DNA of 25,074 nt from Calditrichia bacterium (GCA_030634505.1 DAOWAQ010000001.1:1-25074); one strand, 5' to 3'; shown: positions 2,991-7,076, numbered from the stretch's first letter. The notes: generated by a model not told the origin, from the letters alone. Translations and numbers: made by a program.

Positions 2991-3253
2991 AACAAAAGGC
3001 CAATCCAACATGTGAGCAAATAGGGTGCAACAATAAAGCAACACATAAGATTATGCTCGAATTGCGATCCCTCCCTAATACTCCTCCTGTTAAATCGAGG
3101 ACGTTATTTGTGTGCGATAATCATTGCGATGTTCAATTTAATGATATTGTAAGCAGTCAAATGTTTTGGATGGAAATTTGCACATATTTTAAACGGTTAA
3201 AATTGGCTATACCTGTTAAAAAATATTCTACAATAACAATTAAGAAAAAATAA
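2987..3253 (+). CDS. Hypothetical protein, possible Zn-binding
   Basis: Coupled start; CxxxxC and CxxHC motifs. Confidence 0.65.
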   Translation: MKQKANPTCEQIGCNNKATHKIMLELRSLPNTPPVKSRTLFVCDNHCDVQFNDIVSSQMFWMEICTYFKRLKLAIPVKKYSTITIKKK

Positions 3254-3830: not shown

Positions 3831-4426
3831 AAAAAAGAACAGGAATAGCACTTATAATTTGGAGAATAATATTCTCTTTGGTTGTATTGGTTTTATGTTA
3901 CAATCAATACAGTATTTACAGGCACGTGGAAAGTCATTGTGAAATGCTCCAGGTTTTATCGTATGTAATTTTTCAACAGGGCCTGGAAATACAGCCTGAT
4001 TCGACTGATTACAACGAATTTCAACTAATTAATTATTCAAAAGAAAAATCTAATTGTTCATTCATATTAAAATATGAAAACCAGGTAATAGCAAAAGGGG
4101 TTAATGTTGATTTTGATTTTCAAGTCACAGACAGCACTAATCTTTATTATCGCGGGAATGAGGATTCTGATTTAAAACCAATGCTTACAGAGAATTCACC
4201 CGATTGTATTGTTTCCTTCCATGTAGATAAACATTATTGGAAATTAATAGAAAATTTGTTTACACTTGTGGATAAACCCTTATATTTCTACATAGAAACG
4301 GAATTATATTACCCCAATGTTGATTTCTGTTTAATTGGCAAGGGTTATTTAATTGAATATTATCGGGGAATTTGTACTTTAGAGGTGTTAAGCGGGGATG
4401 TGTTTACGGAAATAACGGAGGAATAA
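3827..4426 (+). CDS. Hypothetical protein with N-terminal membrane anchor
   Basis: MKKR followed by a roughly 20-residue hydrophobic stretch; ATGA overlap. Confidence 0.7.
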   Translation: MKKRTGIALIIWRIIFSLVVLVLCYNQYSIYRHVESHCEMLQVLSYVIFQQGLEIQPDSTDYNEFQLINYSKEKSNCSFILKYENQVIAKGVNVDFDFQVTDSTNLYYRGNEDSDLKPMLTENSPDCIVSFHVDKHYWKLIENLFTLVDKPLYFYIETELYYPNVDFCLIGKGYLIEYYRGICTLEVLSGDVFTEITEE

Positions 4427-4427
4427 A

Positions 4428-4655
4428 ATGGCACGTTTAAATCACAAATGGGTAAAAGACAAGGATTTTAAGATTGCAAAATATTCATCAACATTTGCAA
4501 AATATACTTGCTCCCGTTGTGGTTGTGTTAAGCATAGCAATTCTTATAAAAGAGAAGATGGAGGCAGGAGATATGAAGATCATTTTACAAGGGATGGCAG
4601 AAGTTTTGGTTACAACCCGGAATGTATAGATTGGGACGACAACACTTTAGATTAA
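4428..4655 (+). CDS. Small hypothetical protein, possible Zn ribbon
   Basis: Tightly packed ORF; H...CSRCGC...C motif. Confidence 0.65.
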   Translation: MARLNHKWVKDKDFKIAKYSSTFAKYTCSRCGCVKHSNSYKREDGGRRYEDHFTRDGRSFGYNPECIDWDDNTLD

Positions 4656-4662
4656 AATTATC

Positions 4663-5271
4663 ATGGGATTAAACAAATCAAAAGGGAATTGCTGTATTTA
4701 TAGCATATATTCAAAATCAAATAAAAAGACGTATATCGGCTCAACAAATGATTATAATAAAAGAAAAAGACGCCATATATCAGATCTAAAACTAAACAGA
4801 CATCATTCAATATTACTTCAAAGACACTTTAATAAATATGGAATTGATGATATATCATTTGAATTATTAGAATATGTTAAAGAAGAAAAGGATTTAATCA
4901 CCATAGAACAAAAGTATATTGATAAGTATAATCCTTCATTTAATATCCTAACTGTAGCAGGAAGTCCCCTTGGACGAATATGCTCTGATGAAACAAAAGA
5001 AAAGCTGAGAAAAATAAATCTTGGGAAAAAATTATCAAAAGATACAAAAAGAAAAATGTCAAAAAGCAGAATGGGTAAAAAACGGAAACCATTTACAAAA
5101 GAGACATTAAAAAGAATGTCCGAAAGCAGATCAAAAAGAAAAATAATCAACACAAACACAGGTGCTATATATGAAGGATACAATAATGTTCCCATTGATA
5201 TGAAAACATCAACATTAAGGGCACAATTAATTGGTCAAAATTCAAACAAGACCATATATAAACTAGTATAA
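4663..5271 (+). CDS. GIY-YIG homing endonuclease with NUMOD3-type repeats
   Basis: CIYSIY...TYIGST...R...H, EQKYID...FN catalytic domain, then SDETKEKLR / SKDTKRKMS / TKETLKRMSES repeats. Confidence 0.92.
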   Translation: MGLNKSKGNCCIYSIYSKSNKKTYIGSTNDYNKRKRRHISDLKLNRHHSILLQRHFNKYGIDDISFELLEYVKEEKDLITIEQKYIDKYNPSFNILTVAGSPLGRICSDETKEKLRKINLGKKLSKDTKRKMSKSRMGKKRKPFTKETLKRMSESRSKRKIINTNTGAIYEGYNNVPIDMKTSTLRAQLIGQNSNKTIYKLV

Positions 5272-5286
5272 AATTCAAAATCCAAT

Positions 5287-5946
5287 ATGCTGAATAAATC
5301 CAAAGGAAATATGTACGAGTTTATAACTCACACATGGAACACCGTTAAAGGCAAATGCCCACATGATTGTTCTTATTGTTATATGAAACGTTGGGGAAAA
5401 TTAAACCCCGTTAGATTTGATAAAAAAGAGCTTAAAGAATTCGATAGAGATATTAAAAAATACGGAAATGATAATTTTATTTTCGTTGGTTCTAGTTGCG
5501 ATATGTTTGCTCCTGACATTCCCCATGAATGGATACTTGAAACTTTACACAAATGTTTTGCTGCTGATAATGATTATTTTTTCCAAAGCAAAAATCCATT
5601 TCGGTTTCGCGATTTTGAATTTCCAAAGAAAAGTTCATTTTGCACGACAATAGAAACCAATAGATTTTACATGGACATAATGGGGAATACACCCGAACCA
5701 CACGAAAGGGCTTTTTCTTTACCATTCAATAATTATATAACAATTGAACCTGTAATGGATTTTGATTTAGAAGAAATGATTATTTTGATTAAATTGTCTT
5801 CTCCTAAACAGGTAAATATCGGTGCTGACACTGGCAAAAATGGATTACCCGAACCCAGCAAAGAAAAGATAATATCCTTAATCGAGGGGTTAAATGAATT
5901 TACCATTGTGCATAAAAAGTCAAATTTAAAACGTCTCTTAAAATGA
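5287..5946 (+). CDS. Radical SAM protein, DUF5131 / phage Gp37-Gp68-like
   Basis: HTWNTVKGKCPHDCSYCY (CxxxCxxC), FVGSSCDMF, ITIEPV and QVNIGADTG. Confidence 0.85.
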   Translation: MLNKSKGNMYEFITHTWNTVKGKCPHDCSYCYMKRWGKLNPVRFDKKELKEFDRDIKKYGNDNFIFVGSSCDMFAPDIPHEWILETLHKCFAADNDYFFQSKNPFRFRDFEFPKKSSFCTTIETNRFYMDIMGNTPEPHERAFSLPFNNYITIEPVMDFDLEEMIILIKLSSPKQVNIGADTGKNGLPEPSKEKIISLIEGLNEFTIVHKKSNLKRLLK

Positions 5947-7076
5947 GCAACACAGAAAACACCAATCAGTTTAATAAAATGAAAATAGGTTTAATAGATG
6001 CGGATTTAATAGGGCAAAAACAACATAATTTCCCGAATTTAGCATTAATGAAAATTTCGGGATATTTTAAAAATAATGGATATGAAACCGAATTAATTCA
6101 TTATGATGAAATAAATCCAAATTGTTTATTTCAAAAATATTTTGATAAAGTATTTATTTCAAAGGTTTTCACAAATACTAAAATTCCTGAAAATATTTTA
6201 AAATTAGATTTTGTTGAATTTGGGGGAACTGGTTTTTTTTATGATAAGTCTCCAAATTTACCAGATGAAATAGAACATCATTTCCCGGATTATAATCTAT
6301 ATAATAATTGGATTAAAGAAAAAATAAGGAAAGGGAAAAAAGAAGATTATTTTAAATATTATACTGATTTTTCTATTGGGTTTACAACTCGTGGATGCTT
6401 CAGACAATGTGAATTTTGTGTAAATAGAAATGAAAAAAAAGTATATCCACACAGTCCGTTATCTGAATTTATAGATAAAAATAGAAAGAAAATATGTTTA
6501 CTTGATGATAATATTTTGGGTTGTGGAAAATATTGGGAACAAATTTTTAAAGAATTACAAGCGACAAAAAAACCATTTCAATATAAGCAAGGGATGGATA
6601 TACGTATTTTATCAGAAAAAAAAGCTAAAATTTTAGCAGAATCTAAATACGAAGGTGATTATATTTTTGCTTTTGATAATATTAAGGATAAGAATTTAAT
6701 TGAAAAAAAATTGCAACTATTCAAAAAATATATGCCCACTACAGTACCTAAATTATATGTTTTTTGTGCATTTGATAGGAACAATATTTGGAATGATCAA
6801 TTTTGGTATAATGATTTGATTGATATTTTTGAAAGATTAAAATTATTAATGCAATATAAATCATTGCCATATTTAATGAGATTTGAAAAATGGGATAAAA
6901 ATAATTTTAAATTTATTTATACATTATTAAGCAGTTGGTGTAATTGTCCGGCAATTTTCAAAAAAATGTCATTTAGACAACATTGTGGAAACAATAAATA
7001 TATTATAAGATTTGAAAAACAATATCCAGAAATAGCATTAAAATATTTTGATATGAAATTTGGTGAAATATATTAA
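5943..7076 (+). CDS. Radical SAM protein with N-terminal flavodoxin/B12-binding-like domain (alternative start 5979)
   Basis: FPNLALMKIS N-terminal motif; TTRGCFRQCEFC (CxxxCxxC); LLDDNILG. Confidence 0.85.
   Translation: MSNTENTNQFNKMKIGLIDADLIGQKQHNFPNLALMKISGYFKNNGYETELIHYDEINPNCLFQKYFDKVFISKVFTNTKIPENILKLDFVEFGGTGFFYDKSPNLPDEIEHHFPDYNLYNNWIKEKIRKGKKEDYFKYYTDFSIGFTTRGCFRQCEFCVNRNEKKVYPHSPLSEFIDKNRKKICLLDDNILGCGKYWEQIFKELQATKKPFQYKQGMDIRILSEKKAKILAESKYEGDYIFAFDNIKDKNLIEKKLQLFKKYMPTTVPKLYVFCAFDRNNIWNDQFWYNDLIDIFERLKLLMQYKSLPYLMRFEKWDKNNFKFIYTLLSSWCNCPAIFKKMSFRQHCGNNKYIIRFEKQYPEIALKYFDMKFGEIY

What the first reader, a model, noticed from the sequence alone, without database searches (positions are those of the whole stretch)
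4663..5310. Homing endonuclease shares a recoded N-terminus with its neighbouring gene
The GIY-YIG ORF starts MG-LNKSKGN (tta aac aaa tca aaa ggg aat). The radical SAM gene 15 nt after its stop starts M-LNKSKGN (ctg aat aaa tcc aaa gga aat). The 7 codons encode identical residues and all 5 nucleotide differences are synonymous. Inference: the nuclease inserted in frame after codon 9 of the radical SAM gene, took its start signals, and carries a recoded replacement 5' end. That would keep the host gene intact and immune without splicing, an intron-less homing strategy.
Basis: partly seen in the sequence, partly recalled or inferred. Interest (0 to 1): 0.65.

Follow-up and report, generated by a model that had tools for sequence, protein, structure and literature searches.

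The report
Homing nuclease hijacks host gene's start
A selfish nuclease gene sits inside the first few codons of a phage radical-SAM gene, borrows that gene's start codon, and is followed by a spare copy of the gene's beginning that keeps it whole, which is a phage, 5'-end version of a trick so far described at the 3' ends of fungal mitochondrial genes.

Summary
The GIY-YIG/NUMOD3 ORF (4663-5271) starts MGLNKSKGN. The radical-SAM/DUF5131-like ORF starts 15 nt after its stop (5287) with M-LNKSKGN-MYEF. All five nucleotide differences between the copies are synonymous.

So the nuclease's first nine codons are an rSAM 5' end.

- The only two close relatives of this nuclease (55-56% identity, the only ones among 1.84 billion cluster representatives) have the same layout in unrelated phage backgrounds.
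- None of the three nucleases has another start codon before its catalytic domain.
- In an AlphaFold model the borrowed peptide lies outside the fold; strand 1 starts at residue 10.
- Rfam finds no intron.
- Independently, a LAGLIDADG nuclease (L018) has entered the same gene at codon 16. It leaves a truncated 5' stub upstream and a divergent replacement 5' end downstream.

The closest known analogue is the fungal mitochondrial "mobile ORF" that carries a replacement 3' end.

Three points are not shown: that the synonymous differences confer immunity to cleavage, which copy is native, and where the enzyme cuts. I rate this a new variant of a known kind, of moderate to high interest.

The parts
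4428..4655 (+). Upstream 75-aa ORF (no family match). Its stop TAA lies 7 nt before the shared start codon. Context only.
   Evidence: no relatives in IMG/VR
4663..4689 (+). rSAM-type start codon plus codons 2-9 (MGLNKSKGN), now used as the leader of the nuclease ORF. It matches the consensus 5' end of nuclease-free rSAM alleles, including ATG GGA TTA AAY.
   Evidence: Residues 1-7 have pLDDT below 50 and lie outside the fold.
4663..5271 (+). Homing endonuclease ORF, 202 aa. It is translated from the rSAM-type ATG. There is no other ATG, GTG or TTG before the GIY motif.
4690..4935 (+). GIY-YIG catalytic domain (residues 10-91). Strand 1 starts exactly at the junction. The conserved Tyr, Arg, His, Glu and Asn columns are intact.
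   Evidence: Pfam PF01541 1.1e-10; invariant columns; model
5023..5121 (+). NUMOD3 DNA-binding motif region (residues 121-153).
   Evidence: Pfam PF07460 5e-06
5272..5286 (+). 15-nt spacer between the nuclease stop and the second rSAM start. It is too short for any ribozyme core. In the two relatives the nuclease stop instead overlaps the rSAM start by 8-10 nt.
5287..5310 (+). Second copy of the rSAM 5' end (M-LNKSKGN). The Gly codon is missing and there are 5 synonymous differences from 4663-4689. It restores the full-length rSAM ORF.
5287..5946 (+). Radical-SAM / DUF5131-like gene, 219 aa, intact, with CPHDCSYC. It is the host gene of the element.
   Evidence: (5274 homologues)
5943..7076 (+). 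Second radical-SAM-like gene, overlapping by ATGA. Context only, not part of the element.

Best explanation
This is an intron-less, intein-less GIY-YIG homing-endonuclease cassette lodged inside the 5' end of a phage radical-SAM (DUF5131-like) gene.

Shown from sequence:
- The nuclease ORF is fused in frame behind the start codon and first 8 codons of an rSAM gene, and it has no start codon of its own.
- Immediately after the nuclease stop there is a second start codon plus 7 codons of rSAM 5' sequence, joined to the rest of the gene, so a full-length rSAM protein is still encoded.
- The nuclease, the leader and the duplicated 5' end travel together in three phage backgrounds that share no other genes.

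Inferred:
- The nuclease is translated from the rSAM gene's own initiation region.
- The rSAM protein is made by re-initiation or coupling at the second ATG. That ATG lies 15 nt after the stop here and overlaps the stop in the relatives.
- The enzyme cuts nuclease-free rSAM alleles near their conserved 5' end, and repair copies the cassette in.
- Because rSAM sequence lies on both sides of the nuclease, homing needs no conserved neighbouring gene, much as for an intron but without splicing.
- The two 5' copies differ only synonymously because both descend from working rSAM alleles. The divergence would also hinder loss of the nuclease by repeat recombination, and may protect against self-cleavage.
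For: 1. The rSAM family 5' end is MGLNxSKGNMYEF in more than 100 homologues and in about 20 fetched nuclease-free loci. This is identical to the nuclease leader followed by MYEF.
2. Of 265 GIY-YIG homologues inspected, only the window protein and its two closest relatives (P0122, P0123) carry this leader. These form an isolated clade: 415 and 371 bits against 190 for the next hit among 1.84 billion representatives.
3. Both relatives sit directly upstream of an rSAM gene, overlapping it, and that gene has its own second 5' end (MLNKSKGNMYPW, MPLNKVSKNGNMYSF).
4. More distant GIY-YIG proteins start 2-5 residues before the GIY strand. In the model, strand 1 begins at residue 10 and residues 1-7 are disordered.
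5. There is no Rfam match in 4300-5700 at E<=1, and only 15 nt lie between the stop and the next ATG.
6. Only the nuclease and rSAM genes are shared between the three loci.
7. Independent parallel case in L018: a 24-codon stub whose first 15 residues are MALRKSKGNMYEFIT, then a LAGLIDADG_2 ORF (2.3e-21), then an rSAM gene with a divergent new 5' end.
8. The leaders of the three nucleases differ from one another only at the family's variable position 5 and at synonymous sites, while the nuclease bodies are 53-62% identical.
Against: - No cleavage, expression or homing data exist.
- No nuclease-free sibling of this same phage was found, so the exact insertion boundaries and the direction (which copy is resident) rest on family consensus only.
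- For L019, the nearest nuclease-free rSAM relatives are themselves MLN-type. This fits the downstream copy being native there.
- rSAM alleles of the three nuclease-bearing phages are not shown to be polyphyletic (AU p=0.455), and there is no co-conversion gradient. Horizontal homing, as opposed to long vertical co-inheritance, is therefore not demonstrated.
- A gene caller started the rSAM gene at Met10 (P0001), so use of the ATG at 5287 is inferred from conservation only.
Confidence: 0.8

Rival explanations
1. Start-codon capture by an ordinary free-standing nuclease. The nuclease originally lay in the intergenic space upstream of an intact rSAM gene, so the downstream copy is native. A short local duplication or gene conversion of the rSAM 5' end later gave it a translation start. 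The leader then travels with the nuclease and says nothing about the cleavage or insertion site.
For: - L019's downstream copy (MLNKSKGN) is the type found in its nearest nuclease-free relatives P0111 and P0018.
- HNH nucleases sit upstream of another rSAM allele as ordinary free-standing genes, with no stub (L194).
- T4 free-standing nucleases often overlap neighbours and lack their own initiation regions (PMC2988022).
Against: - A local duplication should start out identical. Here the copies differ at 5 of 21 bases plus a codon deletion, and in all three loci the upstream copy has the Gly codon that the downstream copy lacks or replaces.
- A leader with no function in the nuclease fold would not stay rSAM-like across nucleases that are only 53-62% identical.
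- L018 shows that real insertions into this coding region, with a stub left behind, do occur.
- The present-day structure and expression logic are the same under both readings.
Confidence: 0.15
2. Adaptive recoding. On this reading the synonymous changes and the lost Gly codon in the downstream copy were selected to destroy the nuclease's recognition or cleavage site, making the carrier genome immune.
For: - All three downstream copies depart from the strongly conserved ATG GGA TTA AAY of empty alleles (deletion, CTG/CTT or CCG), while all three upstream copies keep it.
- rSAM alleles next to a nuclease have more unusual N-termini than nuclease-free ones (Mann-Whitney p=0.04).
- There is a precedent in phage T4: an element-borne sequence protects the carrier from MobA (bioRxiv 10.1101/2022.08.31.505936).
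Against: - The p value falls to 0.11 without L194, which I picked because its N-terminus looked odd.
- MLN-type alleles exist with no nuclease nearby.
- Serine codon families do not discriminate between the two classes.
- The window's downstream copy is near-consensus in protein.
- The cleavage site is unknown, and in Seg-type enzymes it can lie far from the insertion site (PMC2988022).
Confidence: 0.3
3. Group I intron, intein or translational bypass. On this reading the nuclease region is removed at the RNA or protein level, or skipped by ribosomes, so that the upstream start is joined to MYEF.
For: - The upstream copy ends exactly where MYEF would follow.
- Many phage GIY-YIG genes are intron-borne, and several database relatives are labelled 'group I intron endonuclease'.
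Against: - There is no Rfam match at E<=1 on either strand.
- The ORF fills the whole interval, leaving 0 nt on the left and 15 nt on the right for a ribozyme.
- An in-frame stop and the lack of any Hint/intein domain exclude an intein.
- The downstream copy has its own conserved ATG and codons under protein-level constraint, which would be pointless if the region were spliced out.
Confidence: 0.02
4. Chance similarity or assembly chimera.
For: The region is AT-rich and the peptides are Lys/Asn-rich.
Against: - The empirical null reaches at most 4 of 7.
- The arrangement is present in the Logan contig L182, and the ENA scaffold L183, which starts inside the nuclease gene, carries its 3' part and the rSAM gene.
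- The same layout occurs in three divergent loci from different samples.
Confidence: 0.01

Closest known systems
Fungal mitochondrial mobile ORF elements (mORFs) that carry a replacement end of the host gene: Allomyces macrogynus atp6; Glomus sp. atp6, atp9, cox2, nad3 (PMC3630166); related cases in Tremella (PMC7315562)
   Same: - A GIY-YIG or LAGLIDADG nuclease ORF is inserted in a protein-coding gene with no intron or intein, sometimes in phase with it.
- The element brings a duplicate of the displaced terminal coding segment, which keeps the host ORF complete.
- The displaced native segment persists next to the element.
- The duplicates are diverged in DNA but similar in protein.
   Different: - Here the 5' end is duplicated, not the 3' end.
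- The nuclease is fused behind the host gene's start codon rather than read through from its body.
- The host gene must therefore re-start translation after the nuclease.
- The genome is a bacteriophage, not a mitochondrion.
Free-standing Seg/Mob homing endonucleases of T4-like phages ('intronless homing') (PMC2988022)
   Same: - A phage GIY-YIG enzyme with no intron, next to a conserved gene that is the likely target.
- Tight packing, with overlap or coupling to neighbours.
- Carrier immunity expected from target polymorphism.
   Different: Seg and Mob genes lie in intergenic regions and have their own start codons. None is described as fused to the first codons of its target gene or followed by a duplicate of them.
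Gene-splitting insertions: mobE in Aeh1 nrdA, and the mobA cassette in T4 topoisomerase genes 39/60 with the 50-nt bypass (PMC2988022; bioRxiv 10.1101/2022.08.31.505936)
   Same: The nuclease is inserted inside a conserved phage coding region with no intron or intein. Extra element-borne sequence keeps the host function and, for mobA, protects the carrier from cutting.
   Different: Those insertions leave the host protein in two polypeptides or need ribosomal bypass. Here the host protein stays whole, because the short displaced piece is supplied again.
[quoted passage not shown]
   Same: The nuclease ORF gains the host gene's translation start by in-frame fusion.
   Different: That case occurs within a self-splicing intron. 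No intron is present here.

Membership tests
GIY-YIG homing endonuclease (I-TevI / Seg type) | GIY-YIG catalytic domain with the conserved Tyr, Arg, His/Tyr, Glu and Asn positions | tested here: met
   PF01541 at 1.1e-10, above the cut-off. Invariant Y13, Y24, G26, R34, H38, E82 and N94 across 7 relatives. The model is confident over residues 10-90.
GIY-YIG homing endonuclease (I-TevI / Seg type) | Separate DNA-binding module after a linker | tested here: met
   NUMOD3 at 5e-06, above the cut-off. The C-terminal helices and strands are modelled at pLDDT 77-88.
GIY-YIG homing endonuclease (I-TevI / Seg type) | Presence/absence polymorphism at one site of a conserved host gene | tested here: met
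   Three carriers, against about 20 inspected nuclease-free loci and more than 100 homologues with an uninterrupted 5' end.
GIY-YIG homing endonuclease (I-TevI / Seg type) | Site-specific cleavage of the nuclease-free allele, and gene conversion into it | not testable with these tools
   This needs enzyme assays or co-infection experiments.
Free-standing (intergenic) phage homing endonuclease | Own ORF with its own start, lying between genes | tested here: not met
   The first 9 codons are an rSAM 5' end, and there is no alternative start before the GIY strand.
Mobile ORF with host-gene end replacement (fungal mitochondrial type) | Nuclease ORF inside the host coding region, plus an element-linked duplicate of the displaced terminal segment that restores the host ORF | tested here: met
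   L018 shows the stub form. It is met in mirror image, at the 5' end instead of the 3' end.
Mobile ORF with host-gene end replacement (fungal mitochondrial type) | The imported segment is demonstrably foreign: native copy matches close relatives, imported copy does not | tested here: inconclusive
   No close sibling genome was found. The family-level comparison points one way for the window and the other way for L019.
Group I intron-encoded endonuclease | Ribozyme core flanking or enclosing the ORF | tested here: not met
   No Rfam hit at E<=1. Only 0 and 15 nt flank the ORF.
Intein-encoded endonuclease | Continuous reading frame through the host protein, with Hint splicing blocks | tested here: not met
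   Stop codon at 5269-5271. Pfam finds only GIY-YIG and NUMOD3.
Radical SAM / DUF5131 (phage Gp37/Gp68-like): the host gene | CxxxCxxC cluster motif and a family profile match | tested here: inconclusive
   CPHDCSYC is present. The Pfam scores of 27.6 and 23.0 fall just under the cut-offs of 29.5 and 28.9. Many homologues carry PF07505 or PF04055.

The most novel reading that the evidence does not exclude
The duplicated 5' end is a functional design rather than a scar. On this reading it does three things:
- It puts conserved target-gene homology on both sides of the nuclease, so the element can home into any phage that has the rSAM gene, whatever its neighbours. That would make it an intron equivalent that needs no splicing.
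- It makes rSAM translation depend on ribosomes that have just finished translating the nuclease, so nonsense decay of the nuclease is penalised.
- Its synonymous divergence blocks both self-cleavage and repeat-mediated loss.

The rSAM 5' end would then be a hotspot on which at least two, and perhaps three, nuclease families have converged with the same solution.
Probability: 0.3. Interest if true: 0.75.

Novelty: new variant of a known kind. Interest (0 to 1): 0.62.

Why it matters
Homing endonucleases are thought to survive inside essential or conserved genes only by hiding in introns or inteins, or else by sitting between genes or splitting the gene. This locus shows another route in phages. 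The nuclease enters the coding region, is expressed from the host gene's own start, and the few displaced codons are supplied again downstream.

Three consequences follow:
- It explains a class of start-site and "duplicate N-terminus" annotation problems in phage genomes.
- It extends a phenomenon known from the 3' ends of fungal mitochondrial genes to the 5' ends of viral genes.
- It offers a compact natural system of about 620 bp for testing how target choice, carrier immunity and host-gene expression are reconciled without splicing.

It also marks the conserved 5' end of this widespread phage radical-SAM gene (more than 5000 homologues) as a recurrent nuclease target.

Tried and rejected
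- Close phage relatives: GenBank phages had no match with blastn. IMG/VR had no relative of the upstream 75-aa gene or of the downstream rSAM-like gene.
- Empty allele of the same phage: contigs of three cold-seep runs showed none. Two short contigs in run X2 join 4689 to about 5373, but they are relatives' empty alleles, not this phage.
- Horizontal transfer: the rSAM alleles of the three carriers are not sisters in the ML tree, but holding them together is not rejected (AU p=0.455). This is inconclusive.
- Co-conversion: similarity among carrier rSAM alleles in the first 40 residues after the duplicated codons (0.72-0.80) equals the family background (0.77 +/- 0.07). No signal.
- Serine codon switch (TCA to AGT) as a recoding signature: rejected, because AGT is common in empty alleles.
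- Loss of the Gly codon as an element signature: rejected as diagnostic, because MLN-type alleles occur without a nuclease.
- rSAM proteins annotated as starting at MYEF: all have the MGLN... codons in frame upstream, so this is only a gene-caller choice.
- Generality of the N-terminal sharing: it was not seen in any of about 95 other GIY-YIG loci.
- Promoter and terminator scans gave nothing above chance in 4200-5500. There is no TAnnTTTG on the plus strand between 2898 and 5412.
- L196, the closest long contig with the second rSAM gene, has no DUF5131-type gene recognisable in the two ORFs that flank its HNH nuclease, so it was uninformative.

Full report
**Observation.**
- A 202-aa ORF (4663-5271, plus strand) starts ATG GGA TTA AAC AAA TCA AAA GGG AAT and continues TGC TGT ATT TAT.
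- It stops at TAA 5269-5271.
- Fifteen bases later a 219-aa ORF (5287-5946) starts ATG CTG AAT AAA TCC AAA GGA AAT ATG TAC GAG.
- The seven codons for LNKSKGN differ at five bases, all synonymous, and the second copy lacks the Gly codon.

Pfam calls the first ORF GIY-YIG (1.1e-10, residues 10-91) plus NUMOD3 (5e-06). It calls the second Radical_SAM/DUF5131-like, just under the gathering scores, and the ORF has the CPHDCSYC motif.

As an empirical null I compared the N-termini of 98 other pairs of a GIY-YIG gene and its downstream gene, taken from fetched loci. The best 7-residue window matched at 4 of 7, against 7 of 7 here. The arrangement is present in the Logan contig L182. The ENA scaffold L183 starts inside the nuclease gene and carries its 3' part and the rSAM gene.

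**What the shared peptide is.**
The radical-SAM (rSAM) gene has 5274 detectable homologues.
- Nearly all of the best 120 begin M-(G/A/S/P)-L-N-x-S-K-G-N-M-Y-E-F, and many begin exactly MGLNKSKGNMYEF.
- The few annotated as starting at MYEF have the MGLN... codons in frame just upstream, so that is a gene-caller choice.
- In about 20 loci where I could read the DNA, the gene starts ATG GGA TTA AAT, then a variable codon, then TCN or AGT, AAA GGN AAT ATG TAY GAG. No nuclease gene lies in front of it.

So the first nine codons of the nuclease ORF are an rSAM 5' end, and in the family they are followed by MYEF.

**The nuclease clade.**
Among 265 GIY-YIG homologues inspected, only three start with this peptide:
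- the window protein;
- P0122 (56% identity), which starts MGLNISK then VCCIY;
- P0123 (55%), which starts MGLNVSKGN then RVICVY.

A profile of the three was searched against 1.84 billion cluster representatives. The two cluster representatives of these three proteins scored 415 and 371 bits and the next protein 190, so the clade is small and isolated.

Both relatives lie directly upstream of an rSAM gene. Their stop codons overlap its start by 8-10 nt, and that gene again has a second 5' end of its own: MLNKSKGNMYPW in L019 and MPLNKVSKNGNMYSF in L020/L021/L102.

Apart from the nuclease and the rSAM gene, the three loci share no detectable ORF. They come from different samples, although L019 is from the same cold-seep study as the window.

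**The leader is not part of the enzyme.**
- More distant GIY-YIG relatives have only 2-5 residues before the GIY strand.
- In an AlphaFold2 model (mean pLDDT 77), residues 1-7 are below 50 and strand 1 starts at residue 10, exactly at the junction.
- None of the three nucleases has an ATG, GTG or TTG between the rSAM-type ATG and the catalytic strand, so all three depend on the captured start codon.
- The three leaders differ from one another only at position 5, which is also the variable position in the rSAM family, and at synonymous sites. The nuclease bodies are only 53-62% identical.

The leaders therefore evolve like rSAM 5' ends rather than like nuclease sequence. Either they are refreshed from resident alleles during homing or they are under selection, for example for translation initiation.

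**Not an intron, intein or bypass.**
- Rfam finds nothing in 4300-5700 at E<=1 on either strand.
- The ORF fills the interval, leaving 0 and 15 nt on its two sides.
- There is an in-frame stop and no Hint domain.
- The downstream copy keeps its own ATG and codons under protein-level constraint.

**An independent parallel.**
In IMG/VR contig L018 the same gene has been entered by a different enzyme family.
- At 3118 a 24-codon ORF begins with the 15 residues MALRKSKGNMYEFIT. Its DNA follows the family consensus for 47 nt and then runs into unrelated sequence and a stop.
- A 245-aa LAGLIDADG_2 ORF with its own start follows (2.3e-21).
- Four bases after that ORF's stop, the rSAM gene starts with a strongly divergent 5' end, MALNWVKNKKSNMYQFIDATWN.

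This is a nuclease inside the coding region, a displaced native stub, and a replacement end. It is the mirror image of the fungal mitochondrial mobile ORFs that carry a replacement C-terminus and leave the native one behind (Allomyces atp6; Glomus atp6, atp9, cox2, nad3; PMC3630166). It also suggests how the GIY-YIG layout could arise: first an insertion that leaves a stub, then fusion of the nuclease ORF to that stub. This is analogous to the 'core creep' of intron ORFs onto upstream exons (PMC8393795).

A further rSAM allele with an unusual 5' end (P0038, locus L194) has two HNH genes directly upstream but no stub. The 5' end of this gene therefore attracts nucleases of three families.

**Mechanism.**
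Shown:
- the fusion to the rSAM-type start;
- the absence of another start codon;
- the restored full-length rSAM ORF;
- the co-occurrence of leader, nuclease and second 5' end in three unrelated backgrounds.

Inferred:
- The nuclease is translated from the rSAM initiation region.
- The rSAM protein is made by re-initiation or coupling at 5287. There is no promoter-like signal above chance in 4200-5500, which fits one transcript.
- The enzyme cuts empty alleles near the conserved 5' end.
- The duplicated codons supply a left homology arm inside the target gene, which would explain spread into phages with unrelated upstream genes.

**Immunity by recoding: not established.**
In favour:
- All three downstream copies alter the ATG GGA TTA AAY that is nearly invariant in empty alleles, and all three upstream copies keep it.
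- Nuclease-linked alleles have odder N-termini than nuclease-free ones (p=0.04).

Against:
- The p value is 0.11 without the one locus I chose because it looked odd.
- MLN-type alleles exist with no nuclease nearby.
- Serine codon families do not discriminate between the two classes.
- The synonymous-only pattern follows equally if the two copies simply come from two different working alleles. It would also be favoured because diverged repeats resist deletion of the nuclease.

Which copy is resident is also open. The window's nearest nuclease-free relatives have a residue at position 2, like the upstream copy. L019's nearest relatives are MLN-type, like its downstream copy.

Horizontal spread is not demonstrated either: AU p=0.455 and no co-conversion gradient.

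**Comparison with known systems and novelty.**
T4-type Seg and Mob genes are intergenic and have their own starts. Known phage insertions into coding regions split the host protein (Aeh1 nrdA) or need ribosomal bypass (T4 genes 39/60 with mobA, whose extra sequence also protects the carrier) (PMC2988022; bioRxiv 10.1101/2022.08.31.505936). Replacement of a displaced gene end by the element is described for the 3' ends of fungal mitochondrial genes.

My literature searches found no description of a phage nuclease fused to its target gene's start and followed by a duplicated 5' end. The library is incomplete, so this is not proof of absence. I class the finding as a new variant of a known kind.

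**Verdict.**
- The structural interpretation is supported and extended to a small clade plus an independent LAGLIDADG case.
- The immunity claim and the direction of the event remain open.
- Confidence in the architecture and expression model is about 0.8, and in adaptive recoding about 0.3.
- Interest is 0.62.

Noticed in passing
L018:3118-4101 (IMGVR_UViG_3300035208_004768): A LAGLIDADG_2 nuclease is inserted at about codon 16 of an rSAM homologue. A 24-codon native 5' stub lies upstream and a strongly divergent replacement 5' end (MALNWVKNKKSNMYQFIDATWN) lies downstream.
   Followed up: yes
L194:579-2447 (SDBU01083337.1): Two HNH-type genes (NUMOD4+HNH_3, and HNH) abut an rSAM allele with an unusual 5' end (MGLNKVKKGSQMYQFIDYTWN). 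No 5' stub was found. The same unusual IDxTWN variant recurs in P0103, P0020 and P0052.
   Followed up: partly
L002, L003, L005, L006, L008, L009, L011, L016: 24 nt upstream of the rSAM start: Many nuclease-free alleles share a conserved upstream stretch (about TTAAAATACAAYTAT before the ATG), although their upstream genes differ. It could be an initiation or promoter element, or part of a nuclease target.
   Followed up: no
window 5311-5335: The conserved MYEFITHT codons form an 11-pair imperfect inverted repeat, found by the terminator-like scan on the minus strand. The L018 LAGLIDADG insertion point lies inside it. It is a possible pseudo-palindromic nuclease target.
   Followed up: no
window 5943-7076: A second radical-SAM-like gene (with a CFRQCEFC motif) overlaps the first by ATGA. 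It has no Pfam match but more than 5000 homologues, and the two genes often travel together. Its function is unknown.
   Followed up: no
L029, L036, L117 (rSAM at about 440-1330; GIY-YIG at 2501-2917): In other phages a related GIY-YIG gene (48% identity over the catalytic domain) lies about 1.2 kb downstream of the rSAM gene rather than in its 5' end.
   Followed up: no
L196:2211-2729 (JAZHCI010365169.1): An HNH_3/NUMOD4/AP2 nuclease lies just upstream of the closest long-contig homologue of the second rSAM gene. Neither ORF flanking the nuclease resembles the DUF5131-type gene.
   Followed up: partly
window, whole: The contig is binned in a 2.45-Mb, 422-contig MAG from a cold-seep metagenome, but it reads as a phage, going by the first-stage notes on terminase, capsid and tail-fibre-like genes. 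The binning may be spurious, or the contig may be a prophage fragment.
   Followed up: no
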